NCBI GenBank assembly: GCA_024274695.1
Contig: JAJSAI010000014.1
Span: forward strand, 1 to 57,875
Reading direction: 5' to 3'
Length of the DNA: 57,875 nt
Source of the DNA: an archaeon
Lineage (GTDB): Archaea > B1Sed10-29 > JAJSAI01
Positions 41,414 to 57,875 of the stretch are shown here, piece after piece. The notes under the pieces were generated by a model. That model saw only the letters and a program-made list of their open reading frames with translations. It ran no database searches and was not told the DNA's origin. The translations under genes were made by a program, and so were the position numbers. Position 1 is the stretch's first letter; each line of letters opens with the position of its first letter.

Positions 41414-41414
41414 C

Positions 41415-41813: not shown

Positions 41814-41829
41814 CACCGGGACAGAAACC

Positions 41830-41837
41830 TTTTAAAA
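41830..41837 (+). promoter_or_regulatory. Internal TATA box TTTTAAAA ahead of pilin gene 41869
   Basis: About 35 nt upstream of the start, in the only sizeable gap of the pilin cluster. Confidence 0.35.
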
Positions 41838-41868
41838 CCACACGCGCCTTTCTCTCTTCGGGTGATGC

Positions 41869-42291: not shown

Positions 42292-42323
42292 GTCAGCGAG
42301 GCCAGCTCGTGAGATGATCTCGG

Positions 42324-42467: not shown

Positions 42468-42481
42468 TCCTCTGAAAAACC

Positions 42482-42490
42482 CTTTTATAC
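42482..42490 (+). promoter_or_regulatory. TATA box CTTTTATAC about 26 nt upstream of pilin ATG 42512 (leaderless)
   Basis: The spacing is the same as at other leaderless genes in this window. Confidence 0.4.
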
Positions 42491-42511
42491 TCTCCCGGCT
42501 TTTTTCTTAGC

Positions 42512-43126
42512 ATGAGCAGGAAGGGCCAGGAGGCCGCGCCAATAGAACTCATGATAGGCGTTACCGTGCTCGCGTTCGTGCTCGTGATCGCGTACTACGT
42601 TTACTCTAACGCCGCGGCCTCTCAGTGCGTGGAAAAAATAAGGGCAAGCTCTGCCCAGCTCGCGAGAACAATAGAGGAGGTGGCCCAACAGGGCCCGGGG
42701 ACAACCAGGTACGTTACAGTCGGGTTCTCGTGCCAGAGTCAGAACGTTAAGGTTTCATACATAACGATAGCGGAAGGGCCTGACCAGACGTGCCAGAGAA
42801 TGGCCGGCGCGAGCAGGTGCTACATGCTCTACGTTATAGGAGACGAGTCAGGCCAGCTTACCGTCATACACTCGGAGCTGTTGAGGAACGTTGGAGAAAG
42901 CGTGGGGATAAAGTACAAGGTAGGGGGCGAGGAGACAAAAATGAAGTGCGATTACAACAGCTTGGTCGCCTACCTGAAGGACGGTAGCGGGTGCGACGCC
43001 GGCGCCTTCATCAAGGCAGGAGAGTACTCGTTCAGGATAACCAAACAAAAGGGAGGACCGGGGGACGAGAAAGAATACTACGTGGTCATAGAAAACCTTC
43101 TCGCTCCTGAGGAGGGAACCTCATGA
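42512..43126 (+). CDS. Pilin-like protein (class III signal, Gln at +1), 204 aa
   Basis: MSRKG|QEAAPIELMIGVTVLAFVLVIAYYVY, with a Cys-containing globular domain. Confidence 0.75.
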   Translation: MSRKGQEAAPIELMIGVTVLAFVLVIAYYVYSNAAASQCVEKIRASSAQLARTIEEVAQQGPGTTRYVTVGFSCQSQNVKVSYITIAEGPDQTCQRMAGASRCYMLYVIGDESGQLTVIHSELLRNVGESVGIKYKVGGEETKMKCDYNSLVAYLKDGSGCDAGAFIKAGEYSFRITKQKGGPGDEKEYYVVIENLLAPEEGTS

Positions 43127-43662
43127 GCCGCGGGCTGGCAATGTGGACCATGTCAAAAATAGTCATGCTGATATTCCTGTTCACGGTCATGGGGTCAATG
43201 CTGTACTACCAGGAGTGGATGAGGCAGACGAGCAGGATAAACCAGGCGCAGTCCGTGGCCATGGAAATAAGAGAAGGGTTCAACAGGATACTGCTCCCGG
43301 AGTCACTGGAATCCAGGGCAGCGGTTCCCATACCGTACAGGATAGCGGGACAAGAGTACTACTTTATGATAAGCACGGCTACCACGAGCTCGGGCCAGAA
43401 GATATTGTATATTGTCCTGGCCTACGGGTCTCATGATAATGGTTTCTTCGGCCCCTGGGATGCTGCGGCATCGCTCATAGTATCCCCTGAGACAGAATTC
43501 TCTAACGGCGAGACAGGAAAGTCCTTGGAAGACTCTCCTGTGCAGGGCAGTTCTTTAACCTACAGGTTCATAATGATTGACAAGGTAATAGACCCTGCTG
43601 GGCACGCTGCTGTCACGGTGCAAGCGTGCGAGAGACTGGACGTTAACGGTGAATGCGCTTGA
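43123..43662 (+). CDS. Pilus-associated N-terminally anchored protein (atypical class III-like signal)
   Basis: MSRG|LAMWTMSKIVMLIFLFTVMGSMLYY. ATGA overlap with the preceding pilin gene. Confidence 0.6.
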   Translation: MSRGLAMWTMSKIVMLIFLFTVMGSMLYYQEWMRQTSRINQAQSVAMEIREGFNRILLPESLESRAAVPIPYRIAGQEYYFMISTATTSSGQKILYIVLAYGSHDNGFFGPWDAAASLIVSPETEFSNGETGKSLEDSPVQGSSLTYRFIMIDKVIDPAGHAAVTVQACERLDVNGECA

Positions 43663-44081
43663 TCGGGAAGGGGTTCATCGGTCCGGTGGGAGACGACATC
43701 CCAACGATCTTGATTATTGTAATGGCTATCACTCTTTTCTTCGCGGGATTTGGCTACGCTCTTCAACTGTACTCTGAAAAGAACGAGAGGCTCATGATGC
43801 TCAAGGCCTCGCTTGACATAAGCAGGGCTCTCCTGAGGTCTACGGTACTGCCAGAGAACCCCATGGATCCCAAGTACTCCGGGCACAAGCAGGCGAGCCT
43901 GCTGGCGCAGTCGTACGGGGTGAAGTTCAGCGCGGTTTACAAGGAGGAAAACTTTGACCCTGCTGCCGACTGCCACGTCCCGCCAGGCCGGGACGTGACC
44001 GTGATGTCCTTCCTGACCGCCAGGAAGGATGCTGACGGGAACATAGTACTGGACACTCTCAGGGTGTGCGTGTGGAAGTGA
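43653..44081 (+). CDS. Pilus-associated N-terminally anchored protein
   Basis: MRLIGKG|FIGPVGDDIPTILIIVMAITLFFAGFGYAL. 10-nt overlap with the upstream gene. Confidence 0.6.
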   Translation: MRLIGKGFIGPVGDDIPTILIIVMAITLFFAGFGYALQLYSEKNERLMMLKASLDISRALLRSTVLPENPMDPKYSGHKQASLLAQSYGVKFSAVYKEENFDPAADCHVPPGRDVTVMSFLTARKDADGNIVLDTLRVCVWK

Positions 44082-44088
44082 TCACAGG

Positions 44089-44598
44089 ATGAGGAAGGGC
44101 CAGTCCGGAGTGATGGACGCCATGATGTTCATGATAATCACTTCAGGAGCGGTCGGCATGCTCCTGTTCGTTTCAGGACTGTACGCTGAGAGCACTAACC
44201 AGCAGGTCCTCTCCTCGTACTCCTACGAGTACGCTGGCAATGCGCTCGTGGCCCTGCACTACGCGCGGGATGATAAGGGAGACTGGTTCTGGAGAAAGCT
44301 TGCGGAGAAATACGACTCAGAGCATCCTGACGAGCTTGAAGAGTATCTTGAGGGAGACGCTGGGAATGTTGTGGAAAAAGTCAGGCTGTCTTCCCCTTCT
44401 CCGCAGACGTACCTGTGCGTGCTTGACAGTTCTGTCAATCCCCTGAAGGCAATGTGCTACAGCATGACCCCTGATGATGTCGGAGTGCTTCAGACAGACT
44501 ACGATAACCCTAACCCCTGCGGTCCCGGCATGCAGTCCTATTCTTACGCTGTTCCCCTGGACGGGGTCAAGTCAGTCTCAGTAATACTATGCTACTAG
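44089..44598 (+). CDS. Pilin-like protein (class III signal, Gln at +1), 169 aa
   Basis: MRKG|QSGVMDAMMFMIITSGAVGMLLFVSGLY. Last gene of the plus-strand operon. Its 3' end overlaps the convergent giant gene by 4 nt. Confidence 0.75.
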   Translation: MRKGQSGVMDAMMFMIITSGAVGMLLFVSGLYAESTNQQVLSSYSYEYAGNALVALHYARDDKGDWFWRKLAEKYDSEHPDELEEYLEGDAGNVVEKVRLSSPSPQTYLCVLDSSVNPLKAMCYSMTPDDVGVLQTDYDNPNPCGPGMQSYSYAVPLDGVKSVSVILCY

Positions 44599-47500
44599 TC
44601 CTCTCTTCTTCTCGCGTACTCCCTGGCCATGGCAAGAGAGACTACTATCAGTGCCACGAACACGAGTCCAGCCGTTCCAGGCGGGATGCTCGGCAGGGCT
44701 AGGAACGGCTGCTCTTGCCTGGTCCCCCTCTTCTCAGGAGGCTTGGCGCTTGGCGCTCCCCACGGCGGCTTGCCCGGCTTCATGAACGCGGCCCCGTTGG
44801 CTCCCTGGCTCACGAACTGCGGGTTGAGCGGGAAGTAAAAGTCGTTCGTCAGACTCACTTTCCCGTCCTGGAAAGAGTAGCCTCCGTTAGGCCCGTTCAA
44901 GAGCATGAGCGGCAGCTTGTTTATTGGGTTGCCGTTAGCGTCGGTGATCACCAGCTGCGGGTTGCCCTGCGGGTCAGTGGTCATGACCGCATAGCCCTGG
45001 TTCCCGTTAGGCAGGACTATCTGGTATCCTGGCATGTCATTGTACGGGGTCTGGTTAACCCATCCCTGGACAGGATACTGGTCCGTGACAAGGTTCCCCT
45101 GGTCATCGTAGTACGAGTACGTGATGTTGGACTGTCCAGTATTAGGATCTGTCACGATCCCGAACATGTTGTTGTCGTCCCCGATGCCGTCCGTGATGCA
45201 CATCGTCTCGGCCTTGTCTTTCCACTGCCGTGCTTCTGGACTGTCCGGGCTCTTGAACTCCCACACGAACTTGAACCCTGGAGTGCCGTCAGGGAGCGTG
45301 CAGTTCTCTATCCTGGGAGCTCCTGCGAACGGCCCGTATTCACTGTCAAGACTGTGCTGCATTCCAGCCAGGTATCCTGTCAGGAACATGTGGTAGACTC
45401 CCGTGAAGTCGTATGCCTCGTCTCCCATTTCCTGTTTTACTCCCGGTCTTATGAATCCTCTGGTGTACACTATCGCTCCGTCGGATCCTAAGGCGAACCT
45501 GCAGAACTCGTCGCCCTTGCTGTCCTTTAGTATTATCGTTCCCTGCTTGTCGTTCTTGAACTCCAGGACGCCGTCCGGAACCGTTGCCACTCCTAAGAAC
45601 CTTGCCTTGCACTCTTTCGGAGGAGCTCCCTTGATGAACCTGAACTTGATCTCGTTCTCGGCAGTGGGCCAGATTATCGCGCGCTCGGTCTGCACGTAGT
45701 CCATGGCCCCCATGGCGTCCCGCAGTTGTTCCTTTACATAACCGTCGTCCTTCACGTTCTTGAGGGCGAGCATGTCGTCAGACATGAGCTTTTCTTTCAG
45801 GCAGTTCCCGTCCGGCGTGTCAGTCGTCTCTATTCCGTCAGGATACAGTTTGAGGATGGTGTCCGCCTGGTCCGCCTTCTTTATTTCTATTACTTTTGAG
45901 GCCATGTAAGCGTACCCGTTGTCCATGTCTATACCAAGGGACAGGAACAGCGGGTTCGGCTCTTCTAGTATTGGGTTGCCTTTCTCGTCAAGCAGGAAGT
46001 AGCCTCCTGCCATCATGCACTTGTACGCTCCGGTCCGCGGGTCCTGGTGGCAGAAGGATATCGGGCAGTCTGGGTCTAAAAGCCACCTGACGTTGGCCCT
46101 CTGGAAGTACGCGTCGTACACCCTGTCCGCGATCAGGTGCATTTCTCCTGGCGCTGTCACCACGTAATCGTGGAGCACCTGGGTCTGGACCTGGTTCGGG
46201 TCGGCCCAGCTCCTGATAATCTGGCCTGCTTCAGGGGACACTCCCTCCAGCCAGTTCACTACCGTGGAAATGGTCTGGCCCGCTTCTTTGGGCAGGTCCT
46301 TGAAGTCCTCTGCTATATCCTCTCCTTCCAGGACCCGCGCCAGGCTCGCTATCTCCACGTCTGTTTCCAGGCAGGTGCTCATGTCCTTTAACGCCTTCTC
46401 CTGGGCTTCTATGGCCTTCATTTCAATGTACGCGTTGGTAAGGTCCGCGACGAGGTCTATCCCCACTCCTACAGCAAAGCCAGCTGGTCCTGCCGCCGCG
46501 AACAGTTCTGGGAGGATGTTGGTGAACGTGGCAACACCCAAGGAGGCTGCCGCCGCCCACTTCCAGTACGTGATGTCCCCTTTCCTGTCGCCGAGCACCT
46601 TGGAGCACATCTGGTTCTCGTGCGAGAACGCGTACTTGACGTTCACCAGCGTTCCCTGCCTCATGTCCTGGCCTGTGAGCGTGGCGACCTGCATGAGCCT
46701 TCTTGCGGTGAAAGAGTATACTAACAGTTTTATGAAAAGCTCTCTCTGCGTGAAGCTGGGCACAGGGATGATGGCCGCGGGTATTGCCGCGTAGAATCCT
46801 CCTTCCAGCACCGCTTTTGAGAAAAGGTAAGTTGTTCCCGCGAAGGTCCCGAACGCGCTTTGGACCAGGTCAGGGGCTAAGGGCTTGTCCACCGCGCTCG
46901 CTATGTCCGCGTTCTTGGTGTACCAGTATATTCCCGTGTACATCCCGTCTTTCAGGTTGGTCCAGCCTGCCGGGTCCTCGTATATCGTGTAACCTGTCAC
47001 GTCATTATAGTCTGAGAAGAAGTAGAACTTTCCTGCCAGGGAAAGGATCATGTTCTTGTTGTTCACTTCAAGCTTCTGGTGGGGGTTGACCTGGTCAACT
47101 ATGTAAACGTGCTTCCCAAGACTCTTTCCCTTGGCAAGGGCCTGTGACGGGAAGTTAGGAGCGTCCGGAGTGTACTTCGTGCTCAGCATTCCCACAAGGC
47201 CTCCGACCAAGGAGAACCCTGCTTGTCTTGCCACGTTCTGGTTGATCCAGGTGGTGTGTATCTCTGTTTCCGCGTATACTGGAGCGCTGATGTTCTCCCT
47301 CAACTCCCTGCTCAGACTGATCTTTGTCACCTGTGATGGGAAGTACGGCTGTTGGAAGTACTCGTTGTACCTGCTCACGGCAATGTAAGAGAGGGTCATC
47401 CCAACATGGCTTAATCTTGTGAAAACTGTGAGGAATGAGATCACGCGCCCCCCGACCGCTGCGAAGATTACTTTTGCGGCGTCCCATTTCGGAACTCCCT

Positions 47501-49400
47501 TCAGGCTCCTGTACACGAGAAGGGGTCCTGCGGTCCCCGCAAGGTATCCTTCTGCGTTCTCAAGTCTTCTCATCTCGTCTTTGGCGTCCTGCAGGTTCTC
47601 TAGTTTTGACCCGTACTTGGCGTTGAAGGATTCCAGAGCGCTCTTGAATCCCTTTTTGGCCTTGCTGAGCTCGTTCATGTTCTCAGAATACGTTTTCAGC
47701 AGGGCCCTAACATCGCTCGGAGCATCTATCTCGTCCAGGTTCTTGACTATGACGTCCACTCCTGTGATTTTTCCTGAATCGTCCGTTATTATCCTGATAA
47801 TCTTTCTGTTCTCTAGTTCTTTAAGTTCGTCCAGGTGGCCTTCCAGGCTTTCCAGAGTCTTCTTAACGGCTCCTTCTTTTTTGGTAACCTCCTTTCCCGC
47901 GTCAAGCACTTTCTCCAGGGCCTCTTTTTTCTTTGAAACGTATCCTCCGATGGGGAAGGACCCTCTTCTGATCCCTCCGAGCACTGCTGATGTTATCCTG
48001 TCCCTGAGCGTGAGCGTGCCTAGATCATCTATGTTTATTGCTATCTTCTGCCCTTCAACTTCTTTTACTATCTGAAGCACACCGTTGTCTCCCTGGAGTA
48101 TCTTGTACCCGTCCCCGAGGTCAGTGTCCGCGGCGGCCTCAAACACTTTCCCTGTGCCCCTGTCGAGCACGTACGTTTTTCCCCCCTTGCTTACGCGCAC
48201 GAACCTTTCTTCAGCAGGCAGTCTCCGCGCGCCTTCCTGGAGGCTGTCCGCGATGTCTATCTGTGCCTCCAGCACTGCCTTGATGTTCTTGTTCCTGCCT
48301 GAAACCTCCCGGTACCAGTCTTTAAGATCATACCACCATCCGAGGGCCTTGCCTTTTATTCCCTTGCGCGCGGTTTTTTCACTGAGTTCTAGAGCCTCCT
48401 CGGCAGCATCGTCTCCTATTCCGGACGAGGGGTTGGCGAGCATTTCTGTTACCGCCGCAATAGAGTACACGGTGTCAAACTCGTTCCAGGCTGTGGCAAG
48501 CCAGCCTATGAACTGCATCAGGTGAACCGGCACGAGTATGTCCAGCTTGTCAGGCCCGAGAAGGTTTATTTCAATGTTGTTGCTCCTGATCCTGTTCGGG
48601 GGCTTGGACGCGTCCTCAAGGTCCCTTCCAACTACAGATGACACCTTGTTGGTCAGTTCCCTCACCACGAGCCTTTTCTCGTCCTCGCTTAGCACGGTCA
48701 CGTCCTTTTCCACATCATCAAGATCATACTCTTTTGAGACCTTGAGTATTGCGGACCTGACCCATGACCTCACCTTCTCGTCAGAATTGACAGCATCCCG
48801 GAACGCTTGCGTGTTATTGTTGTAAAGCGCGTTAACAAGGGACGTTATGATCGGCGCTCTCTCGGCAGTGTCAATAGTCCCGCTGAAGTCAATCCCTTTC
48901 CCGCAGTCCTCGTCCACGGTACAGTATATTGTTTCGTCTGTCCTGAGCGCGTACGAGACAAGCCCGTCAACTATAACGTTCTTCAGCTGGCACGCTTCCG
49001 CAGGGCTTTCCACCTGTTTTTTCTGCACGTTGTACAGCAGGAGCTTGCCTCTCTCGGTCATGATGAACTTGTCCTTCACTCTCTCTGCCCCGGGAACGTC
49101 AGAGAGGCCCTGTTCCTCCATTCTCTCCTGCTGCATTCCCAGGACAGGGTTCCCGAAAGCGTCCAGTTGGGGGAAGCTCGTGCGTATCTTTGTTTTCAGC
49201 CGCTGGTACTCTGAATAGTTTAGCTTGTCAATCCATACGTTTTCGCAGCCTCCCAGCCGGGCTCCTTCCTTAACGTCATTGTTCCTCCAGTCCCACACGG
49301 TGGCCATTTCAGAATCCTGGCAGCACTGGGTCAGAGGATAGAACGAGGGCATTATGAGCGTTACCGCGAGTAAAAACGTCAGGAGACCGCGTTTGTTCAT
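44595..49400 (-). CDS. Giant (1601 aa) secreted protein with an N-terminal signal peptide and a sortase-type C-terminal tripartite signal
   Basis: N-terminus MNKRGLLTFLLAVTLIMPSF. C-terminus ...LPSIPPGTAGLVFVALIVVSLAMAREYARRRED (motif, TM helix, Arg-rich tail). It has a central coiled coil, Gly/Ala-rich hydrophobic segments, and an N/G/Q/P-rich region before the tail. Confidence 0.85.
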   Translation of the reverse strand: MNKRGLLTFLLAVTLIMPSFYPLTQCCQDSEMATVWDWRNNDVKEGARLGGCENVWIDKLNYSEYQRLKTKIRTSFPQLDAFGNPVLGMQQERMEEQGLSDVPGAERVKDKFIMTERGKLLLYNVQKKQVESPAEACQLKNVIVDGLVSYALRTDETIYCTVDEDCGKGIDFSGTIDTAERAPIITSLVNALYNNNTQAFRDAVNSDEKVRSWVRSAILKVSKEYDLDDVEKDVTVLSEDEKRLVVRELTNKVSSVVGRDLEDASKPPNRIRSNNIEINLLGPDKLDILVPVHLMQFIGWLATAWNEFDTVYSIAAVTEMLANPSSGIGDDAAEEALELSEKTARKGIKGKALGWWYDLKDWYREVSGRNKNIKAVLEAQIDIADSLQEGARRLPAEERFVRVSKGGKTYVLDRGTGKVFEAAADTDLGDGYKILQGDNGVLQIVKEVEGQKIAINIDDLGTLTLRDRITSAVLGGIRRGSFPIGGYVSKKKEALEKVLDAGKEVTKKEGAVKKTLESLEGHLDELKELENRKIIRIITDDSGKITGVDVIVKNLDEIDAPSDVRALLKTYSENMNELSKAKKGFKSALESFNAKYGSKLENLQDAKDEMRRLENAEGYLAGTAGPLLVYRSLKGVPKWDAAKVIFAAVGGRVISFLTVFTRLSHVGMTLSYIAVSRYNEYFQQPYFPSQVTKISLSRELRENISAPVYAETEIHTTWINQNVARQAGFSLVGGLVGMLSTKYTPDAPNFPSQALAKGKSLGKHVYIVDQVNPHQKLEVNNKNMILSLAGKFYFFSDYNDVTGYTIYEDPAGWTNLKDGMYTGIYWYTKNADIASAVDKPLAPDLVQSAFGTFAGTTYLFSKAVLEGGFYAAIPAAIIPVPSFTQRELFIKLLVYSFTARRLMQVATLTGQDMRQGTLVNVKYAFSHENQMCSKVLGDRKGDITYWKWAAAASLGVATFTNILPELFAAAGPAGFAVGVGIDLVADLTNAYIEMKAIEAQEKALKDMSTCLETDVEIASLARVLEGEDIAEDFKDLPKEAGQTISTVVNWLEGVSPEAGQIIRSWADPNQVQTQVLHDYVVTAPGEMHLIADRVYDAYFQRANVRWLLDPDCPISFCHQDPRTGAYKCMMAGGYFLLDEKGNPILEEPNPLFLSLGIDMDNGYAYMASKVIEIKKADQADTILKLYPDGIETTDTPDGNCLKEKLMSDDMLALKNVKDDGYVKEQLRDAMGAMDYVQTERAIIWPTAENEIKFRFIKGAPPKECKARFLGVATVPDGVLEFKNDKQGTIILKDSKGDEFCRFALGSDGAIVYTRGFIRPGVKQEMGDEAYDFTGVYHMFLTGYLAGMQHSLDSEYGPFAGAPRIENCTLPDGTPGFKFVWEFKSPDSPEARQWKDKAETMCITDGIGDDNNMFGIVTDPNTGQSNITYSYYDDQGNLVTDQYPVQGWVNQTPYNDMPGYQIVLPNGNQGYAVMTTDPQGNPQLVITDANGNPINKLPLMLLNGPNGGYSFQDGKVSLTNDFYFPLNPQFVSQGANGAAFMKPGKPPWGAPSAKPPEKRGTRQEQPFLALPSIPPGTAGLVFVALIVVSLAMAREYARRRED

Positions 49401-51352: not shown

Positions 51353-51892
51353 TCACAGCTCTTTTGTCACGTAGGGGAACGCGAACAGGTTCTCGCTCAC
51401 GTGCAAGGGGGGTCTTACGATGTCCGCTCTCAGTCTCCCCTCCTCGTCCACTGCTTCTGGCTTGTAATGGAGCCTGACCACCCTCCCGATTATTAGCACG
51501 TGGTCTCCCTCTTTCTTTGCGCTCTCCAGGTAGCATTCCATGCTCGCCGCGCATTCCGCGAGAAGGGGTGGGGCTACTTTCTCGGCGGGCGCGGTCTGGA
51601 GCCCTGCCTTCTCTATCTTGGACACGTCAGGATCATGCTTTCCGCCCGCTATCCACACCTTTTCAAGCATCTTTTCTGTTGGGATGTTGACCACGAACTC
51701 CTTTTTCCGGGTGATGTTCCAGTAGGAGTGCTTGTTAGGGCCTACCGCGAGCATGAGCAGGGGAGGGTCAAAAGAAACAGGGGCCACGAAAGAGAACGCT
51801 GCCACGTCAGCCCTTCCCTTCTCGTCCACGGTGGTCACGAGGACCACTGGCCTGGGCGCCAGCAGCTTGTAATAGTTCTTAGGGTCGGTCAA
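51353..51892 (-). CDS. Flavin reductase-like (FMN-binding split-barrel) protein
   Basis: LLAPRPVVLVTTVDEKGRADVAAFSFVAPVSFDPPLLMLAVGPNKHSYWNI matches the flavin reductase domain pattern. Confidence 0.8.
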   Translation of the reverse strand: MTDPKNYYKLLAPRPVVLVTTVDEKGRADVAAFSFVAPVSFDPPLLMLAVGPNKHSYWNITRKKEFVVNIPTEKMLEKVWIAGGKHDPDVSKIEKAGLQTAPAEKVAPPLLAECAASMECYLESAKKEGDHVLIIGRVVRLHYKPEAVDEEGRLRADIVRPPLHVSENLFAFPYVTKEL

Positions 51893-51899
51893 GACAGGA

Positions 51900-52274
51900 T
51901 CACCCCAGGATGGCGTGTTCTTTTATCTCAACCTCCATTCCCTTGCCAAGGCCCTTGTCCCTGACGCTCTGGACCTGCACCTCGTCAAGATACCTCACCT
52001 GGATCCTGGCGGTCAAGAGCTCTTTCTCGTCAAATTCCCTTGGAACCGTTCTCCAGTAACCTGTTTTCACTGACAGGACCTGGGCCAGTACTCCTCTTGT
52101 GCCTTTTACCACGTCCTGCTTGCTGAGGTTGGTTATGAACAGCATTTCTCCCTTCTTTATCCTGGTGGCTGTCGTGATGTGGTCAGCGCACACTAGCTCA
52201 AACGTTTTTATCCCGTGCCTCATGAGATCCTCTATCTCACTCCAGTCTATGGCAGTTATCGCGTAGACCATCAC
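51900..52274 (-). CDS. Hypothetical 124-aa protein (possibly a PUA/ASCH-like small beta-barrel)
   Basis: Compact soluble ORF tightly spaced between neighbours. Family not recognised. Confidence 0.5.
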   Translation of the reverse strand: MMVYAITAIDWSEIEDLMRHGIKTFELVCADHITTATRIKKGEMLFITNLSKQDVVKGTRGVLAQVLSVKTGYWRTVPREFDEKELLTARIQVRYLDEVQVQSVRDKGLGKGMEVEIKEHAILG

Positions 52275-52277
52275 GCA

Positions 52278-53015
52278 TCACCCGTACATGCTCGGATACA
52301 CCTGTTTCTCGGCGTTAGTGTACCCTTTCCTCCCCTTTTCTATTTGCGCGAGCATTGTCTTGACCTTCTCCTTTATTTTTTCAGCCTCTTTCCTCAGGTC
52401 CTTCACGTCAACCTGGACGCCGGTTATCCTGGAGAACACTTCAAGCAGGTCAGCGGCAGCCCCGGGGTCAGGGATGTTCTGCATGGTGGGCACCAGGAGC
52501 CCCATCCCCTCTACGCCCTCGTTGGCGCACATCGCGAGCAGGATCCCGGAGACTCCTGCTGTTACCCCTTCTTCCACGGGCGCTATTCCCAGGTTCTGGA
52601 ACGTTTTCAGTATCTTAGGGTTGGACGCTATCCCGTAGGCCTTCTTCGGCTGTGGCACGAGAGAGGTTATCCCCGCGAAGGAGATGATCCTCTTCACCCC
52701 CTGTTTTTTCGCCAGGTCTATGACCTCCCGGGCTAGAGGGTATACTGACTTGCTTGGTATGACGAACTCGGAGAGTATGACGCACAGTTTGGTTTTCTTG
52801 TCAGCGTAAACCCTCACGGGAAAAGACGGCCGTCCCTTTATTATGACCGAAACCGGAGCGAACTCATCGCTCTCCACGTACCCTACTTCTTCCATCCCGA
52901 GCTTGTCCACCAGGTGGCCTGCGGCTATTGTGGCCACCCATCCTATTCCAGGAAACCCTTCTATCAGGGTGTACCCCTTGAGGCTTGTTCTCTTGTTAAA
53001 CTTTATCCTTAGCAT
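52278..53015 (-). CDS. PAC2-family proteasome assembly chaperone (PbaA/PbaB-like)
   Basis: LKGYTLIEGFPGIGWVATIAAGHLVDKLGMEEVGYVESDEF matches the PAC2 N-terminal pattern. 245 aa. Confidence 0.8.
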   Translation of the reverse strand: MLRIKFNKRTSLKGYTLIEGFPGIGWVATIAAGHLVDKLGMEEVGYVESDEFAPVSVIIKGRPSFPVRVYADKKTKLCVILSEFVIPSKSVYPLAREVIDLAKKQGVKRIISFAGITSLVPQPKKAYGIASNPKILKTFQNLGIAPVEEGVTAGVSGILLAMCANEGVEGMGLLVPTMQNIPDPGAAADLLEVFSRITGVQVDVKDLRKEAEKIKEKVKTMLAQIEKGRKGYTNAEKQVYPSMYG

Positions 53016-53118: not shown

Positions 53119-53886
53119 GTGAAAGTGATGGAGAAAAAGGTTTTTCTTGCCGTAGGAGTTCTCGTGGCAAGCGTTCTCCTCGCGGGATGCGTGGGAGAAC
53201 AGGCCAGCGGGGGCCAGTCATACTCGGGCATGACCCCGGAGCAGGTGATAAGCCACCTGGACTCTAAGATAGCTGAACTGAACAAAACAGGCCAATTCTA
53301 TTTCAAGGGAAGCATGGGCTTCAAGGGCACCAAAGGATACTATGAAGTGTGGGCGGACACCAAGGCAGAGAAGCTGAAGATGAAGGTGTCTGTTCCAGGG
53401 GAAGGGAGCATGACCATGCTGTACTCGGACAAGACCCTTTACATGTACGACGTGACGGGCACCGCGAAAGCGTCTGTGATGGGCGACGTGGACTGCTTGT
53501 ACTACTCAGTTCCAGAGGAAGATTCCGGAATGGAGAACGTGTCCAAGTACGCCACGACCACCTTAAAGTCAAAGGGGGCGGAGTTCAAGGGATTCAAGGA
53601 CTGCACGATCAACGGCCAGCCGCGCACGTGCGCTGAGGTACACTACATTGACGATAATGGGGATGACGTTACCGCCTGGTACACCATGGAAGAAGGGTAT
53701 CCTGTGAAAGTGATTACGAGGAGAGGCTCTGAAACGACCGTTAACATGATCAACGAGTTCAAGACATCAGTCCCGTCAGGAGTTTTTGAGGCTCCTAAGA
53801 ACTGTGTCTCCATGCAGGAGCTGCTGGTCAAGGCGATGAACAAGTCAGCCCAGGAGCCTACGACCGCGGTCACTCCCTCGGCATAA
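53119..53886 (+). CDS. Putative lipoprotein (lipobox LLAGC), possibly a LolA-like fold
   Basis: MKVMEKKVFLAVGVLVASVLLAG|CVGEQ, then a beta-rich domain (YYEVWADTKAEKLKMKVSVPGEGSMTMLYSDKTLYMYD). Confidence 0.65.
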   Translation: MKVMEKKVFLAVGVLVASVLLAGCVGEQASGGQSYSGMTPEQVISHLDSKIAELNKTGQFYFKGSMGFKGTKGYYEVWADTKAEKLKMKVSVPGEGSMTMLYSDKTLYMYDVTGTAKASVMGDVDCLYYSVPEEDSGMENVSKYATTTLKSKGAEFKGFKDCTINGQPRTCAEVHYIDDNGDDVTAWYTMEEGYPVKVITRRGSETTVNMINEFKTSVPSGVFEAPKNCVSMQELLVKAMNKSAQEPTTAVTPSA

Positions 53887-53904: not shown

Positions 53905-54684
53905 TCATGCTATGCTGGACCCGAGCGAGAGCGCGTACACCGCGCTCGCGGCGGGAACAATCACGGAAGCGTAAAATACTATCCTGTCCCTCTTGTTCTC
54001 CGCGAGGGCAAGGAAAACAGACACTATAAGGCCCATGAGGGGCACGTAGTACTGGTTGGCGGTCAGGACAGCATCCTGCAGCCCACTGTCGTCAGGCCCG
54101 GTTCCCAGCACGCCGGTCCCGGGAAGGTCAAGGGACCTGACCACAGAGAAAGAGGTTCCCAAGAGCCACGGGATCAACAGCCCTGCCGAGATAACCAGGG
54201 TATACTTTTCCACGAGCAGTGACGCGTTCCCCTCTTTTTCAAGCGCTCTCTTGTTCATTCCCTCTTCGGCCAGTGTCCTCATGGCCCTCGCGACCCCCTC
54301 TCCCTTCCGGTAGCACGCGAGCAGCAGCCACACTTCCTCCCGGAGCAGGGGGTTCTCCTCAGCCATTTCCTCAAGCGCCTTTTCCACAGGAGCTCCCCTG
54401 CTTATCTCCCTGCACGCTCTCATAAGGCGGGCGTGGAACGGAGAGTCCCCTCTGGCCGCTTCCCTTAACGCTTTCTCAAAGGGAAGAAATCCCACCAGGA
54501 CCGAAAAGTGGTACATCACTTCAGGCGCGCTCTCCTTCTCCCTGCGCTTCCTCTTTTCCCTGCTGTACTCGGGGAACATCACCGCCTCTGCCACGGGGAT
54601 AGTGATCATAGGAGCGTAAACAGGCCCTGCCAGGACAGTTCCTGCGATCCACGCGCACGCGACCAGCACGACTCCGGAGATCAT
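53905..54684 (-). CDS. TadC/GspF-domain membrane protein (second secretion locus)
   Basis: Start at MISGVVLVACAW, immediately after the upstream stop. Helical domain FEKALREAARGDSPFHARLMRACREISRGAPVEKALEEMAEE is flanked by TM helices. Confidence 0.7.
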   Translation of the reverse strand: MISGVVLVACAWIAGTVLAGPVYAPMITIPVAEAVMFPEYSREKRKRREKESAPEVMYHFSVLVGFLPFEKALREAARGDSPFHARLMRACREISRGAPVEKALEEMAEENPLLREEVWLLLACYRKGEGVARAMRTLAEEGMNKRALEKEGNASLLVEKYTLVISAGLLIPWLLGTSFSVVRSLDLPGTGVLGTGPDDSGLQDAVLTANQYYVPLMGLIVSVFLALAENKRDRIVFYASVIVPAASAVYALSLGSSIA

Positions 54685-55469
54685 GCCGCAGGCCTCCTTG
54701 ACAGCAAAAGCAGCATAACCGTGGCGCTCGCGGCAGGAAACCCTGCCAGGATGACTCCAACAGCCTGGACCGGGCCCAGTCCCACGTTCATGAAAGAGGA
54801 GCCTATGGTGACAAATGACTCGAACATGCACGGCAGAACCGCGGAGCACATTATAAAGAAAAGAGAGTACATGACCGCTTTGCTGTTATACTCCCTGATC
54901 CTGTTCCTCTGCTCCACGAGAACGCTCCTCGCGAAAGAGGAAAGGTTCTCTGTTGACCCCGTGTAGTAGGTTCTCTCAAGCTCTGAGCACGCTCTAGAGA
55001 ACGTTGGGCAGGGAGAAAGTATCCTCTCCTTCTCCAGTGCAGAGTGCGCGCTTTCCCCTGCCTCCATCCTGTCAGCTGCCCTGGCAAGCCTTTCCCCAGC
55101 AGGGCCTCCTGCGCCCTTGAGTGCCTTCTCAAACCCTTCTCCCGCCTCCAGGAGCGCGTACACGAGCAGGAGCGCCCACGGTACCGAGGAGTAAACCTTT
55201 CTGGCGATAAAACGCCTTTTGCAGAAAGGCCATAATCCCAGCACCATGATCCCCGCCCCGGCAAGACCCCAGACGCCGAAGAACAGGCAGGAAGAAAAGG
55301 AGGTCCACGCGGACAAGAACACCAGGCCCGCGAGCAGTCCAGAATACTCTTCAACGGTCCACCCTGCCTGGACGAGGGGCAGGCGCGCTCTGTCCAGCAC
55401 GCCGAGTAAAGGCCGTCCTGCGGGCTCAAACCCTCTTGCCAAGCACAAGAGCAGTCGCTCTAGAAGCAT
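54681..55469 (-). CDS. TadB/GspF-domain membrane protein (second secretion locus)
   Basis: GFEKALKGAGGPAGERLARAADRMEAGESAHSALEKE is flanked by TM helices. The start is uncertain: ATG at 55469 or TTG at 55442. The ORF-track start at 55601 overlaps the ATPase by 176 nt. Confidence 0.65.
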   Translation of the reverse strand: MLLERLLLCLARGFEPAGRPLLGVLDRARLPLVQAGWTVEEYSGLLAGLVFLSAWTSFSSCLFFGVWGLAGAGIMVLGLWPFCKRRFIARKVYSSVPWALLLVYALLEAGEGFEKALKGAGGPAGERLARAADRMEAGESAHSALEKERILSPCPTFSRACSELERTYYTGSTENLSSFARSVLVEQRNRIREYNSKAVMYSLFFIMCSAVLPCMFESFVTIGSSFMNVGLGPVQAVGVILAGFPAASATVMLLLLSRRPAA

Positions 55470-57105
55470 ACTCCCTGAAACCCTCCTCGCATGACTCAAG
55501 AAACCTTTTCTTGTCAGGGCATACCCTGCCCCCGGACACCTTCTCCAGGCCCCCTTTCTTCCAGAGGAACACTGGCTCGAGTCCATCTTGCCCCATGACA
55601 CTCGCGTGGGTTACCCTTCTAACCTCGCGCCCAGAGGAGTAGTCTGTCCACCTGTTCTGGCACACTATGACGTCAAATCCGGTCAGGAACGCCTTCCCGA
55701 CCCCGAGGCTTTCAAGCCTTTGTACCGTCTGTTCTGGGCTTCTCGCGTGGAACGTGGCGAAGCAGCTTTTGCCCTGGCCAGCCAGCATCGTGTCAACCAG
55801 CGCGCTGACCTCCTCCCTTTTCCTGACCTCTCCCACGACCACCCTGTCCGGCCGCATTCTCATGGTGTCAGCCACGAGACTGCTCATGCTGGTCCCCTGG
55901 TCTTCTGAGCACACCATCCTCACCACGTGCTCGTGAGGCGCGACTATCTCAGGAGTCTCCTCCACGATCACTATCCTCTCGTTCAGCGGGACGAGGCACA
56001 GGAGAGCGTTCAGGGTAGTTGTTTTCCCTGACCCTGTGCTGCCGCACACCAGGACATTCCGTCCTTCTAAGATCTTTTCCCAAAGCCAGGCTAGCAGTTC
56101 AGGAGTGCACGTTCCGTTCCGGATAAGGGAGCCTGGAGTGAGAGGCTCTTTCCGGAACTTCCGTATAGTGAGCACTGTTCCTCCAGCGCTCACGGGCGGT
56201 TGCACGGCGTGAATCCTGCCCAGGGGGATGTCCGCGTTTATCCTCGGCGTCTTAGCGGATAACCTCCTGCCGAGGCCCCTCGCCATCTTGTTGGCTATCT
56301 GAACGATCTTCTGGTCGGACGTGAAGCGCACGTTCGTGTCAGGCCACCCGTGTTCTGAGTGGTACACCCTTACGGGGCTTCCGGGGCCTGTCACTGTCAC
56401 TTCCTCCACAAGAGGGTCCTGCAGGAACTCTGACAGGACAGAATACCCTCTGAGCTCTTTCTCCATCTCCTGGACCAGGAACTCTCTTGTGCCTGGAGAG
56501 AGGATAACTCTCTGCCTTTCACAGTATTCTTCAAGCTCTTCCTCTGGCTCGAACCTGGGCTTTCCAAGAGAATGTTTCAGCAGACCGTGAAGAACCTTTG
56601 CCTCTTCTATCCACGGTGGCCTTCTTTTGGTCACGTACCACTTTTTTCCTTCCTCGTCCTCGCATATCATGGCGCGGTCGTTTTCCCATTCCACCCTCGC
56701 GGGCAGGATCTTTCTTTTCTCGTACCCGAGAAGAGAGTCCACTATCTTCTTCTCCGAATCGTTCAGCACCATCTCAATCGCGGAATAAGGGCATGAAGAA
56801 ACGCACGCCGGAAACCCTCTTGAGTAGCACAGGTCGCACTTGACTGCCTTTCTTCCCTTTATTAGCACGGCCTGGAACGGGCAGGCGCGGGCGCAAGCTC
56901 CGCACCCGTCGCACTCTTCAGCAAGTATCACAGGAAAACCGTTTGACAGGACGACAGCGTTTTTCGGGCAGGCGGTCACGCACTCCAGGCTGCAGTGGTC
57001 TGGATCGCACCTTAGCAGTGCCTTCATTTCCTCTGCTCCATCCGCTTTCTCGCAGGCGCACGCCCCGCACCCGACGCACGCGCTCTTCATGATATGCAGG
57101 CGCAT
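55426..57105 (-). CDS. CpaF/TadA/VirB11-type secretion ATPase fused to an N-terminal double 4Fe-4S ferredoxin-type domain
   Basis: Four Cys clusters (CVGCGACAC, CSLECVTACP, CDGCGACARACP, CDLC...CVSSCP) are followed by Walker A VCGSTGSGKTTTL, IVIVEETPEI and VVVGEVRKREE...ATFHARS. An alternative leaderless start at 57090 (MKSACVGC) lies 28 nt after GTTTTATAGT. Confidence 0.85.
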   Translation of the reverse strand: MRLHIMKSACVGCGACACEKADGAEEMKALLRCDPDHCSLECVTACPKNAVVLSNGFPVILAEECDGCGACARACPFQAVLIKGRKAVKCDLCYSRGFPACVSSCPYSAIEMVLNDSEKKIVDSLLGYEKRKILPARVEWENDRAMICEDEEGKKWYVTKRRPPWIEEAKVLHGLLKHSLGKPRFEPEEELEEYCERQRVILSPGTREFLVQEMEKELRGYSVLSEFLQDPLVEEVTVTGPGSPVRVYHSEHGWPDTNVRFTSDQKIVQIANKMARGLGRRLSAKTPRINADIPLGRIHAVQPPVSAGGTVLTIRKFRKEPLTPGSLIRNGTCTPELLAWLWEKILEGRNVLVCGSTGSGKTTTLNALLCLVPLNERIVIVEETPEIVAPHEHVVRMVCSEDQGTSMSSLVADTMRMRPDRVVVGEVRKREEVSALVDTMLAGQGKSCFATFHARSPEQTVQRLESLGVGKAFLTGFDVIVCQNRWTDYSSGREVRRVTHASVMGQDGLEPVFLWKKGGLEKVSGGRVCPDKKRFLESCEEGFREYASRATALVLGKRV

Positions 57106-57142
57106 CGCATGATACTATAAAACGAGTGGGAAAAGTATGTTG

Positions 57143-57472
57143 TCACACGGGCTCGGGTTTCAACCGGATTTTTTCCCCTGGCTTCAGGCCTTCGGCTTTC
57201 CCCACGGGCATTTCCACCAGGAACTTGGCCTGCTTTTTTGGGATCACGAGGGGTCTGAATGGTTTCACTCTGTCCACCTGGATGACCCTGTACTCCTCGT
57301 CAAGCCACACCGCGTCAAAAGGAAAGAAGACGAAAAAAGAGTGGATGCTGTTCCGGAGTTTTCCCTTCTTGTCGAACACGAACAGAAGGGGTCTTTCGTG
57401 TTTTTTCCTGAACATGAGTCCTCTGAACTTCTTCCAGGGCGTGTCACACAACTCGTAGTCGCGCAGGATCAT
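57143..57472 (-). CDS. DUF192 (UPF0127) family protein
   Basis: CDTPWKKFRGLMFRKK...LLFVFDKK...FFVFFPFDAVWLDEEYRVIQV matches the DUF192 pattern (GLMxR, F.F, .D..). Confidence 0.75.
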   Translation of the reverse strand: MILRDYELCDTPWKKFRGLMFRKKHERPLLFVFDKKGKLRNSIHSFFVFFPFDAVWLDEEYRVIQVDRVKPFRPLVIPKKQAKFLVEMPVGKAEGLKPGEKIRLKPEPV

Positions 57473-57479
57473 CTTCTCA

Positions 57480-57875
57480 TCACTTCCAGCACACGCTCAC
57501 GTTCCTGGAAAGTCTCTTGAAATCGTTCTCCAGGATAATGCTCACGGTGGTGGTGTTAGTGCAGTCTGTGGTGCAGTTGTAGAACGCGTCACAGTAGGCC
57601 GCCAGGGGCCCGGAAGAATATGAGATGTTAATGTCAAGCGCTTTTGAGGACGCGTACCACTCTGCGTACTTGCTGAAGTCTGAGATCCTGGCTGTGTTCG
57701 CTGGGTCCATTCTGACAACGTACGCCATTTCCCTGCTGATCTCCTGGAACACTGATTCTGCGGTCCCGGTTTCCTCCACGTTCTGCTCTGCTCTGTGGAA
57801 GTAGCTCACGTACGCTGCAGCAACCCCCGCGACCACGATTATCATCAGGTACGCTGCGATTATGTAGAACTGGCC
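57480..57875 (-). CDS. Pilin-like protein, N-terminus runs off the right edge
   Basis: The frame stays open upstream of the listed Met to the window edge, giving ...GQFYIIAAYLMIIVVAGVAAAYVSYF. This is a G|Q plus hydrophobic helix as in the other pilins. The C-terminal domain is Cys-containing. Confidence 0.6.
   Translation of the reverse strand, partial: GQFYIIAAYLMIIVVAGVAAAYVSYFHRAEQNVEETGTAESVFQEISREMAYVVRMDPANTARISDFSKYAEWYASSKALDINISYSSGPLAAYCDAFYNCTTDCTNTTTVSIILENDFKRLSRNVSVCWK

What the first reader, a model, noticed from the sequence alone, without database searches (positions are those of the whole stretch)
53905..57875. Second, Tad-like secretion locus whose ATPase is fused to two 4Fe-4S ferredoxin-type domains
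The minus-strand order is: pilin-like gene (G|Q FYIIAAYLMIIVVAG, truncated by the window edge), DUF192 protein, 559-aa ATPase, TadB-like protein, TadC-like protein. The ATPase N-terminus has four Cys clusters: CVGCGACAC, CSLECVTACP, CDGCGACARACP and CDLCYSRGFPACVSSCP. This is the pattern of two dicluster-type Fe-S binding motifs. It is followed by a standard CpaF/VirB11 core (GSTGSGKTT, GEVRKREE, ATFHA). An Fe-S module on a secretion ATPase would allow redox or O2 control of filament assembly. I do not know of a characterised example. The conserved DUF192 gene between pilin and ATPase is also unexplained. A TATA-like GTTTTATAGT 28 nt before the second Met suggests a leaderless start at MKSACVGC.
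Basis: partly seen in the sequence, partly recalled or inferred. Interest (0 to 1): 0.65.

Follow-up and report, generated by a model that had tools for sequence, protein, structure and literature searches.

The report
Pilus motor ATPase with iron-sulfur module
A small symbiotic-type (DPANN, Micrarchaeota-like) archaeon encodes a pilus-assembly motor ATPase that carries a conserved module predicted to hold up to four iron-sulfur clusters; this fusion is common in these archaea, but I found no paper that describes or tests it.

Summary
On the minus strand lie a pilin gene (cut by the window edge), DUF192, a 559-aa ATPase and two TadB/TadC-like platform genes, with short gaps or overlapping start and stop codons.

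The ATPase has a complete secretion-ATPase core. Its first ~115 residues carry 16 cysteines in four groups. All 16 are invariant or ≥90% conserved across 38 homologues of 35-57% identity.

The module is not two tandem ferredoxins. By sequence and predicted fold it is one nested four-cluster unit of the HycB/DmsB/PsrB type.

Variant homologues lose cysteines in exactly the sets that would ligate one cluster. That argues for real cluster ligands, not disulfides or zinc.

The fusion occurs in over 100 sequences from Micrarchaeota/Iainarchaeota-type MAGs, so it is not an assembly artefact. Orthologues without the module sit in the same gene context, so it is an accessory.

I read it as a cluster-dependent input or docking domain on a Tad/Epd-like motor. 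This is inferred, not shown.

In some relatives the locus is the distal half of a larger two-ATPase cluster. DUF192 also accompanies bacterial Tad loci.

No paper on the fusion was found. It is a new variant of a known kind, of moderate interest.

The parts
57480..57875 (-). Pilin-like gene. Its 5' end is cut by the window edge, and about 3 codons are missing.
   Evidence: ORF. The orthologue in L081 (9207-9611) starts MKKG|QFYIISAY, a class III signal peptide followed by a hydrophobic helix.
57143..57472 (-). DUF192 protein, 109 aa, with no signal peptide. It is a conserved accessory of Tad-like loci.
   Evidence: Pfam PF02643, E 1.7e-13. NCBIfam PRK03760, E 4e-22, but at 78 bits this is below that model's cut-off of 146. 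It lies immediately or closely upstream of the ATPase in L081, L084-L087 and L089-L091. My own HMM also finds it in Fe-S-less DPANN loci and in about 12 bacterial CpaF loci.
57116..57121 (-). TATA-like TTTATA in the DUF192-ATPase spacer. It lies 16 nt before M1 (57105) and 31 nt before M6 (57090).
   Evidence: Six other genes in the window have a TATA-like element starting 25-30 nt before their start codon.
55426..57105 (-). 559-aa secretion ATPase of the FlaI/GspE/CpaF superfamily with an N-terminal Fe-S module.
   Evidence: Pfam and NCBIfam scans. AF2 model with pLDDT 90.9. Foldseek best matches are FlaI 4ihq/4ii7, archaeal GspE 2oap and CpaF 8rjf/8rkd.
56761..57105 (-). Fe-S module, residues 1-115, with four Cys groups: I at 57052-57078, II at 56965-57009, III at 56878-56913, IV at 56788-56838.
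   Evidence: Motif coordinates. Cys conservation. Sequence hits in the PDB: MvhB, HycB3/4, FdnH, PsrB, ABCE1. Fold hits are four-cluster subunits 9mqx, 7qv7, 6x1o, 6cz7, 2vpw and 1kqf.
55660..56439 (-). T2SSE core, residues 223-482. Walker A at 56017-56043, Asp box at 55948-55980, Walker B at 55822-55854, His box at 55744-55758.
   Evidence: The motif residues are invariant in alignment A1.
54681..55469 (-). TadB-like platform protein. The likely start is ATG 55469, which overlaps the ATPase 3' end; the mechanical ORF extends to 55601.
   Evidence: T2SSF at 18.9 bits, below the cut-off. Orthologues are called T2SSF. My own HMM hits archaeal and bacterial TadB/TadC. Start codon checked.
53905..54684 (-). 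TadC-like platform protein. Its ATG at 54684 overlaps the TadB stop codon (ATGA).
   Evidence: T2SSF E 5e-9. Overlap confirmed. Orthologues.
51353..53015 (-). Conserved downstream neighbours: PAC2 (52278-53015), DUF473 (51900-52274) and Flavin_Reduct (51353-51892). They are syntenic with relatives but separated here by a plus-strand gene, and PAC2 has its own TATA-like element. They are probably not part of the machine.
   Evidence: Pfam scan. Synteny. TATA-like element at -30 of PAC2.

Best explanation
The gene encodes the hexameric motor ATPase of a Tad/Epd-like type IV filament machine in a Micrarchaeota-like DPANN archaeon. The machine has two single-domain platform proteins, a cytoplasmic DUF192 accessory and pilins with class III signal peptides.

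Onto an otherwise complete ATPase, evolution has fused a small HycB/DmsB-type ferredoxin module whose 16 Cys bind up to four [4Fe-4S] clusters. Groups I+IV form one two-cluster half and groups II+III form the other.

**Most likely mechanism (inferred).** The module folds only around its clusters. It sits at the N-terminus, where relatives of this ATPase family carry partner-binding or ligand-sensing domains. The motor can therefore dock or assemble into an active form only when the clusters are intact, that is, under anoxic, iron-replete, reducing conditions. ATP hydrolysis itself does not need the module.

**Shown here:** the domain architecture, Cys conservation, fold similarity, loss of Cys in whole-cluster units, conserved gene context, and the existence of module-less orthologues.

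**Inferred:** actual cluster binding, and the gating role.
For: - **Architecture.** Fer4 plus T2SSE in one continuous ORF, with all catalytic motifs intact and invariant.
- **Cys conservation.** All 16 Cys are invariant or at least 90% conserved at 35-57% identity.
- **Sequence similarity.** The N-domain matches solved [4Fe-4S] proteins: MvhB 5e-18, HycB3/4, FdnH, PsrB.
- **Fold similarity.** Its model matches four-cluster subunits best (E 5e-6 to 1e-4, TMq 0.56-0.65). A plain 2x[4Fe-4S] ferredoxin reaches only E 0.07.
- **Loss in whole-cluster units.** Thirteen homologues lack group I Cys1-3 together with group IV Cys4, at two separate places on a rough NJ tree. Five lack group II Cys1-3 together with group III Cys4. 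These are exactly the ligand sets of single clusters in the nested FdnH/NarH wiring.
- **The module is an accessory.** Fe-S-less orthologues occupy the same DUF192-ATPase-TadB-TadC-PAC2 context. They are nested among 16-Cys forms on that tree.
- **Precedent for N-terminal add-ons.** GspE N1E bound to GspL (4pht) is among the fold hits. The 2026 preprint 10.64898/2026.04.22.720090 reports subsystem-specific N-terminal domains on archaeal ATPases.
- **From my own knowledge.** The MshEN c-di-GMP sensor domain of MshE/PilB-type ATPases, and cluster-dependent assembly of archaeal RNA polymerase subunit D, are analogous cases.
Against: - Nothing here shows metal binding, redox activity or regulation.
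- Four clusters in a chain is the hallmark of electron relays, not of known Fe-S sensors, which use one cluster.
- The window's own group I is two residues short (CxxCxxCxC, no CP), so one site may be impaired in this particular protein.
- No model coordinates were available, so I could not check Cys-Cys geometry or how the module packs on the ATPase.
- The tree used to infer repeated loss is neighbour-joining without support values.
Confidence: 0.45

Rival explanations
1. The module binds clusters but is redox-inert. It serves only as a compact, rigid adaptor or lever that contacts the platform, DUF192 or another partner, as the Fe-S domain of ABCE1 does on the ribosome. It has no sensing role.
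For: The ABCE1 Fe-S domain is among the sequence and fold hits (6tmf_d, 3bk7, 3j15; 7o80 and 3jah), and it is a precedent for an Fe-S domain on an ATPase. Clusters and the whole module are lost repeatedly without loss of the locus, as expected for a replaceable structural add-on.
Against: Very strong conservation of all 16 ligands in most lineages. Oxygen-labile clusters would make the protein condition-dependent whether or not that is 'intended', so this rival shades into the best explanation.
Confidence: 0.25
2. The four clusters are a working electron wire. The motor passes electrons between a cytoplasmic donor and something at the membrane or in the filament, or it uses redox energy.
For: The closest sequence and fold relatives are all electron-relay subunits: HycB3/4 of HDCR, AOR and WOR5 small subunits, PsrB, ArrB, FdnH. 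A Flavin_Reduct gene lies downstream in the window and in many relatives.
Against: - No redox partner is consistently linked. Flavin_Reduct is also present next to an Fe-S-less orthologue (L089) and absent next to a 12-Cys form (L090).
- In the window a plus-strand gene separates Flavin_Reduct from the locus, and PAC2, which lies in between, has its own TATA-like element.
- The P0060-type variants have lost the group II/III cluster. From my knowledge of NarH/FdnH this cluster is internal to the chain, so the wire would be broken.
- The platform proteins show no cofactor motifs.
Confidence: 0.12
3. The cysteines bind zinc or form disulfides, so the domain is a Cys-rich structural knot without Fe-S. 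Makarova et al. 2016 assumed this for other Cys-rich N-domains of archaeal pilus ATPases.
For: PMC4858521 interprets Cys-rich N-domains in subclade 4F and arCOG05558 ATPases as disulfide-forming. From my own knowledge, bacterial GspE/PilB carry a tetracysteine zinc site.
Against: - The motif spacing, the CP signatures and the group II/IV patterns are those of [4Fe-4S] proteins, with significant Pfam, PDB and fold matches.
- Cys are lost in three-plus-one sets that make sense only for cross-ligated cubane clusters.
- The protein is cytoplasmic, where disulfides are unlikely.
Confidence: 0.05
4. The fusion is an artefact: a ferredoxin gene joined to an ATPase gene by misassembly or a missed stop codon.
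For: None found. A few short 125-131 aa database entries resemble the N-domain alone.
Against: The ORF is continuous. The same architecture appears in more than 100 sequences from independent assemblies and sources, including contigs of 0.2-1.1 Mb. The short entries end at the conserved LGW boundary or lack it, and look like fragments or genuine stand-alone ferredoxins.
Confidence: 0.01

Closest known systems
Bacterial Tad pilus ATPase CpaF/TadA with TadB/TadC, and the archaeal Epd-like 'system 1'
   Same: An ATPase core followed by two separate single-domain platform genes. Structures of CpaF (8rjf, 8rkd, 9e24) are among the best fold matches. After DPANN archaea, bacterial CpaF are the next-best relatives at 30-36% identity. 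DUF192 accompanies both. Two platform genes are the mark of system 1, which is reported in DPANN.
   Different: The protein scores below the curated TadA and FlaI cut-offs (189 vs 373 bits; 188 vs 550 bits). It carries an N-terminal Fe-S module that none of the 22 non-DPANN homologues inspected has.
FlaI/ArlI archaellum ATPase and Archaeoglobus GspE (PDB 4ihq, 4ii7, 2oap)
   Same: Best overall fold matches (E 1e-35 to 1e-32). Same N-terminal domain plus RecA-like C-terminal domain.
   Different: About 24% identity, no archaellum genes nearby, and an extra 115-residue Fe-S module.
HycB/DmsB/PsrB/FdnH-type four-[4Fe-4S] electron-transfer subunits (Pfam Fer4_11)
   Same: Four Cys groups with the typical group II and group IV patterns. 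Best fold hits are 9mqx_G, 7qv7_A/B, 6x1o_B, 6cz7_B, 2vpw_B, 1kqf_B and 7z0s_B. The Cys co-loss pattern implies nested I+IV and II+III wiring.
   Different: The module is only about 110 residues, is fused to a motor ATPase and has no catalytic partner subunit nearby. Stand-alone mini-ferredoxins of about 130 aa with the same pattern exist (P0170, P0174, P0178) and are the likely source.
ABCE1/RLI: an ATPase with an N-terminal two-cluster Fe-S domain
   Same: An Fe-S domain fused N-terminally to a mechanochemical ATPase. Weak but significant sequence hits.
   Different: A different ATPase superfamily (ABC), two clusters rather than four, and a role on the ribosome.
N-terminal add-on domains of secretion ATPases: GspE N1E binding GspL, and the MshEN c-di-GMP sensor of MshE/PilB
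   Same: An accessory domain at the same end of the same ATPase superfamily, used for docking or signal input. GspE-GspL (4pht) is among the fold hits. MshEN is from my own knowledge.
   Different: Unrelated folds. Here the prosthetic group would be Fe-S clusters, not a nucleotide or a protein partner.
AapX, the separate Fe-S protein of the Sulfolobus Aap pilus locus
   Same: An Fe-S protein genetically tied to an archaeal type IV pilus machine, with unknown function.
   Different: A separate gene of another family (arCOG07320) in another pilus system, not fused to the ATPase.
Cys-rich N-terminal domains noted in archaeal pilus ATPases of subclade 4F and arCOG05558 (Makarova et al. 2016)
   Same: A variable Cys-rich N-terminal extension on archaeal T4P ATPases.
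   Different: Those were read as disulfide-forming, in Methanomicrobia and Thermoproteales. Whether any of them are Fe-S modules was not tested here. The paper's main text contains none of the terms 'ferredoxin', 'Fe-S', '4Fe-4S' or 'iron'.

Membership tests
Secretion ATPase superfamily (T2SSE: GspE/PilB/FlaI/CpaF/VirB11) | Walker A, Asp box, Walker B and His box in a RecA-like C-terminal domain | tested here: met
   GSTGSGKTT at 355-363, ERIVIVEETPE at 376-386, RPDRVVVGEVR at 418-428, ATFHA at 450-454. Pfam T2SSE E 7e-34, above the cut-off. The motif residues are invariant in A1. Fold matches.
TadA/CpaF equivalog (TIGR03819) or FlaI equivalog (NF058587) | Score at or above NCBIfam's curated whole-protein cut-off | tested here: not met
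   188.9 bits against a cut-off of 373, and 188.4 bits against a cut-off of 550. It is a relative of both and a member of neither.
Tad/Epd-like type IV filament system | Two separate TadB/TadC-like platform genes next to the ATPase | tested here: met
   TadC-like T2SSF E 5e-9. TadB-like is below the cut-off (18.9 bits), but its orthologues are called T2SSF and my own HMM links it to bacterial TadB/C.
Tad/Epd-like type IV filament system | Pilin with a class III signal peptide | tested here: met
   The window ORF begins GQFYIIAAYLMIIVVAG at the edge. The orthologue starts MKKG|QFYIISAY. No processing was shown.
Tad/Epd-like type IV filament system | Dedicated prepilin (class III signal) peptidase | tested here: inconclusive
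   Only a motif search of the window's ORFs was run, and it gave no convincing candidate. The gene may lie elsewhere in the genome.
Four-cluster ferredoxin module (HycB/DmsB/PsrB type, Fer4_11) | Four Cys groups (16 Cys) with nested pairing I+IV and II+III | tested here: met
   All 16 Cys conserved. Co-loss of I(1-3)+IV(4) and of II(1-3)+III(4). Fer4_11 is listed for many homologues. The window's group I is two residues short.
Four-cluster ferredoxin module (HycB/DmsB/PsrB type, Fer4_11) | Fold of the four-cluster subunits | tested here: met
   N-domain model (pLDDT 83.7) matches 9mqx_G, 7qv7_A/B, 6x1o_B, 6cz7_B, 2vpw_B and 1kqf_B with E 5e-6 to 8e-5 and TMq 0.56-0.65.
Four-cluster ferredoxin module (HycB/DmsB/PsrB type, Fer4_11) | Actual binding of [4Fe-4S] clusters and redox activity | not testable with these tools
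   Needs anaerobic purification, Fe/S analysis, UV-vis and EPR.
DUF192 (PF02643) | Score above the Pfam gathering threshold | tested here: met
   50.9 bits against a cut-off of 27. There is no signal peptide, as in the copies next to bacterial Tad genes.

The most novel reading that the evidence does not exclude
The hexameric motor would carry up to 24 [4Fe-4S] clusters at the base of a surface filament and work as a true redox device. It might pass electrons to or from the filament or the envelope (for example in electron exchange between the symbiont and its host), or it might couple electron flow to filament dynamics. That would be a kind of type IV filament machine not described before. 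The closest fold relatives of the module are all electron wires, including the filament-forming HycB3/4 of HDCR.
Probability: 0.07. Interest if true: 0.9.

Novelty: new variant of a known kind. Interest (0 to 1): 0.55.

Why it matters
Type IV filament motors are among the most studied prokaryotic machines. Their known inputs are protein partners and c-di-GMP. A metal-cluster module on the motor itself would add a new type of input, or possibly a new activity.

The fusion sits in DPANN archaea, whose surface filaments are candidates for host contact. A motor that depends on intact Fe-S clusters would link attachment or filament assembly to oxygen, iron or redox state in organisms with almost no other regulatory repertoire.

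The family is large enough (over 100 sequences) for this to be tested. It also supplies natural controls: three-cluster, two-cluster and module-less orthologues.

The side result matters too. A cytoplasmic DUF192 subfamily travels with CpaF-TadB-TadC in both bacteria and archaea, which gives a long-standing domain of unknown function a concrete context.

Tried and rejected
- **Flavin_Reduct as redox partner: rejected.** The conserved downstream Flavin_Reduct gene seemed to co-occur with the Fe-S module in the first loci examined. It is also present next to an Fe-S-less orthologue (L089) and absent next to a 12-Cys form (L090). In the window, PAC2, which lies between Flavin_Reduct and the locus, has its own TATA-like element. 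I treat the synteny as inherited gene order, not functional coupling.
- **Window's other ATPase as the missing partner: rejected.** I asked whether the 759-aa ATPase at 37084-39363 is the 'ATPase 1' seen upstream in relatives. It is only 26% identical, so it belongs to a separate system.
- **Genome-collection scan: partly wasted.** It still supplied the DUF192 comparison.
- **Sequencing runs: none listed.** This left no check of expression, of the start site, or of the two-residue deletion in group I.
- **DUF192 against solved structures by sequence:** no hit at E ≤ 1.
- **Model coordinates: not available.** Cys-Cys distances and domain packing could not be measured, so I used the Cys co-loss pattern instead.
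- **Prepilin peptidase:** a motif search in the window was inconclusive.
- **Literature:** five searches for an Fe-S-bearing pilus or secretion ATPase found nothing relevant.

Full report
**What is in the sequence.**

The minus strand of 53905-57875 carries five closely packed genes:
- A pilin-like ORF that runs off the window edge (57480-57875).
- A 109-aa DUF192 protein (57143-57472).
- A 559-aa ATPase (55426-57105).
- Two platform-like genes.

Pfam supports DUF192 (E 1.7e-13), T2SSE on ATPase residues 223-482 (E 7e-34) and several Fer4 families on residues 35-112. The last gene is a clear T2SSF protein (E 5e-9). The one before it scores below the Pfam cut-off (18.9 bits), but its orthologues are called T2SSF.

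The likely TadB start (ATG 55469) overlaps the ATPase 3' end. The TadC start overlaps the TadB stop codon as ATGA. These overlaps suggest that these three genes are co-expressed.

The pilin is nearly complete. Its orthologue in the closest relative begins MKKG|QFYIISAY, a class III signal peptide followed by the hydrophobic helix.

**The organism.**

The window is archaeal. It encodes Nre and a family B DNA polymerase and a tRNA gene with a long insert.

The named relatives of its polymerase are almost all Candidatus Micrarchaeota/Micrarchaeia. Named relatives of the ATPase are Micrarchaeota and Diapherotrites/Iainarchaeota MAGs. Several large contigs (0.24, 0.69 and 1.08 Mb) carry close homologues of both proteins. 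I take the source to be a Micrarchaeota-like DPANN archaeon.

**The Fe-S module.**

Residues 10-105 hold 16 cysteines in four groups. The other 454 residues hold 10.
- In an alignment of 38 homologues of 35-57% identity, 14 of the 16 are invariant and two are at least 90% conserved.
- In 120 homologues, 86 keep the whole set.
- The consensus is CxxCxxCxxxCP, then a group with variable spacing ending CxxxC, then CxGCGxCxxxCP, then KCDLC(x3-9)CxxxCP.

By sequence, the domain matches solved [4Fe-4S] proteins: polyferredoxin MvhB (5e-18), HycB3/HycB4, FdnH, PsrB and ABCE1.

A model of the domain alone (pLDDT 83.7) finds as best structural matches the four-cluster small subunits of aldehyde oxidoreductases, HDCR HycB3/4, WOR5, ArrB, PsrB, FdnH and HycB (E 5e-6 to 1e-4, TMq 0.56-0.65). 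A plain two-cluster ferredoxin reaches only E 0.07.

**An internal test of the ligand assignment.**

Variant homologues do not lose cysteines at random:
- Thirteen lack the first three Cys of group I together with the last Cys of group IV.
- Five lack the first three Cys of group II together with the last Cys of group III.
- Three keep only groups III and IV.

In ferredoxin-type proteins the first three Cys of a motif bind one cluster and the fourth binds the neighbouring cluster. In FdnH/NarH-type four-cluster proteins, groups I+IV and II+III pair up. This wiring is established knowledge recalled from memory, not re-derived here.

The observed losses are therefore clean deletions of single clusters under the nested wiring. 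They are not what tandem ferredoxins, zinc sites or disulfides would predict.

On a rough neighbour-joining tree of the ATPase core, the I/IV loss appears at two separate places. Module-less forms appear at two further places among 16-Cys forms. This points to a 16-Cys ancestor and repeated reduction. The tree has no support values.

One caveat concerns this particular protein. Its group I is CxxCxxCxC, two residues shorter than in every aligned relative.

**The ATPase.**

Walker A, Asp box, Walker B and His box are intact and invariant. The full-length model is confident (pLDDT 90.9). It matches FlaI, archaeal GspE and CpaF best. It is below the curated cut-offs for both TadA and FlaI, so it is a relative of both and a member of neither.

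**How widespread the fusion is.**
- Nearly all of the best 120 homologues have Fer4 plus T2SSE in their precomputed domains.
- JGI's automatic names already pair 'CpaF family ATPase' with 'Fe-S-cluster-containing hydrogenase component 2'.
- A profile of residues 1-222 searched against 1.84 billion representatives finds 33 proteins at E ≤ 1e-30. I count roughly 40 of 450-700 aa that match the whole profile in one stretch.
- The same search finds stand-alone four-cluster ferredoxins of about 130 aa. These are plausible donors of the module.
- One divergent carrier, P0144, has an ATPase core about equally distant from this family and from the neighbouring paralogue. The module may therefore sit on more than one ATPase lineage.
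- None of the 22 non-DPANN homologues inspected, bacterial CpaF proteins and other archaeal homologues alike, has the module.

**Gene context.**

In seven relatives with enough flanking sequence the order is DUF192, ATPase, two T2SSF genes, then PAC2. DUF473 and a flavin reductase-like gene often follow. The window has the same neighbours, but a plus-strand gene is inserted after TadC.

In four relatives the DNA just upstream holds three or more small genes. In the two whose sequences I read, these have pilin-like N-termini. Further upstream lie two larger T2SSF genes and a second ATPase of 641-664 aa.

The window edge therefore probably cuts a two-motor cluster in half. Other relatives lack that upstream block, so DUF192-ATPase-TadB-TadC is the conserved unit.

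Fe-S-less orthologues sit in the same context.

**DUF192.**

An HMM built from the archaeal copies finds DUF192 next to Fe-S-less DPANN ATPases. It also finds DUF192 in about a dozen bacterial CpaF loci, in several of them about 2 kb downstream of cpaF on the same strand. None of the copies whose N-termini I read has a signal peptide, and all share motifs such as SIHxFFMxFPIDVVFLD.

A 2025 paper noted DUF192 beside Tad genes in a few Firmicutes (PMC12786226). It is thus a recurrent cytoplasmic accessory of Tad-like machines. Its function is unknown, and it is not tied to the Fe-S module.

**The start codon.**

The TTTATA at 57116-57121 lies 16 nt before M1 and 31 nt before M6. Six other genes in the window have a TATA-like element starting 25-30 nt before their start codon.

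Against that, the family N-terminus MRLxxDxxxC matches M1 exactly, and relatives show no equivalent TATA. Both starts keep all 16 Cys. I cannot decide between them.

**Mechanism.**

The shown facts are:
- A complete motor ATPase.
- A well-conserved four-cluster module at its N-terminus.
- Loss of that module in whole-cluster units or entirely, with the locus retained.
- No consistently linked redox partner.

N-terminal add-ons in this ATPase superfamily are docking or input domains. GspE N1E with GspL appears among the fold hits. The MshEN c-di-GMP domain is a further example from my own knowledge. The 2026 preprint stresses subsystem-specific N-terminal domains.

I therefore favour a cluster-dependent docking or input domain that makes the motor usable only when its clusters are intact (confidence 0.45). 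The rivals are:
- A redox-inert adaptor, as in ABCE1 (0.25).
- A real electron wire (0.12). It is supported by the nature of the closest relatives. It is weakened by the lack of a partner and by variants that have lost what should be an internal cluster.
- Zinc or disulfides (0.05).
- An assembly artefact (0.01).

**Comparison with what is known, and novelty.**

The machine is of the Tad/Epd-like kind. The module is of the HycB/DmsB kind. The combination is not described in any paper I could search.

The nearest published remarks are:
- Makarova et al. 2016, on Cys-rich N-domains of other archaeal pilus ATPases, read as disulfide-forming.
- The separate Fe-S protein AapX of the Aap pilus, of unknown function.

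Automatic annotation has already seen both domains. The finding is therefore a new variant of a known kind: real, widespread in DPANN archaea, uncharacterised and readily testable.

Noticed in passing
window 37084-44600 (+), and 44595-49400 (-): This is the other type IV filament locus in the window. It has a 759-aa T2SSE ATPase (37084-39363) and a 690-aa protein with a weak T2SSF hit (39341-41413). Four ORFs have class III signal-peptide-like starts; the stop-to-stop frames holding them begin at 41409, 41866, 43111 and 44047. A 1601-aa protein starts MNKRG|LLTF. The ATPase is only 26% identical to the 'ATPase 1' of relatives, so this is a third, separate system.
   Followed up: partly
beyond window 57875; L081 3261-9611, L084 625-6979: In some relatives the DNA just upstream of the pilin/DUF192 genes holds two more pilin-like genes, two larger T2SSF genes, a second ATPase (641-653 aa, PilB3_N/C-like) and two further pilin-like genes. 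That makes two motors, each with its own platform pair, flanking one block of pilin genes. Why there are two motors is unexplained.
   Followed up: partly
L012, L013, L014, L022, L039, L047, L048, L052, L057, L060, L069, L078 (bacterial CpaF loci): A signal-peptide-less DUF192 subfamily lies near cpaF-tadB-tadC in MAGs and genomes labelled Anaerolineales/Anaerolineae, Caldilineaceae, Chloroflexia, Blastocatellia, Actinomycetota, Syntrophomonadaceae, Bacilli, Proteiniclasticum and Neobacillus. It also lies near the ATPase in DPANN archaea. This looks like a cross-domain accessory of Tad-like machines. Only one paper was found that mentions the link.
   Followed up: partly
window 8834, 10569, 20326, 42512, 50718, 53015 (start codons): A TTTAWA-type element starts 25-30 nt before the start codon of these genes. 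This suggests that leaderless transcripts are common in this genome.
   Followed up: partly
window 13048-13229 (-): Rfam reports a tRNA match spanning 182 nt that ARAGORN does not report. It is probably an intron-containing archaeal tRNA gene.
   Followed up: no
window 53119-53886 (+): A 255-aa ORF with a lipoprotein-like start (…VLLAGC) and no Pfam hit lies on the opposite strand between TadC and PAC2. Relatives have either nothing or a different gene at this position.
   Followed up: no
window 28766-36466 (-) and 27798-28766 (-): A 2566-aa protein has only a CarboxypepD_reg hit at its N-terminus. The adjacent 322-aa ORF has a class III signal-peptide-like start (RNRG|FSLF). These may be filament-associated surface proteins.
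   Followed up: no
window 51353-53015 (-): The PAC2-DUF473-Flavin_Reduct block stays next to the ATPase-TadB-TadC genes across relatives of 38-57% ATPase identity, including one Fe-S-less orthologue. PAC2 is the most constant member. I saw no functional reason for this.
   Followed up: partly
P0144, P0165 (database proteins): These are more divergent ATPases (647 and 701 aa) that carry the same four-group Cys module. P0144's core is about as close to the neighbouring paralogue family as to this one. This hints that the module moved between ATPase lineages or is older than their split.
   Followed up: partly
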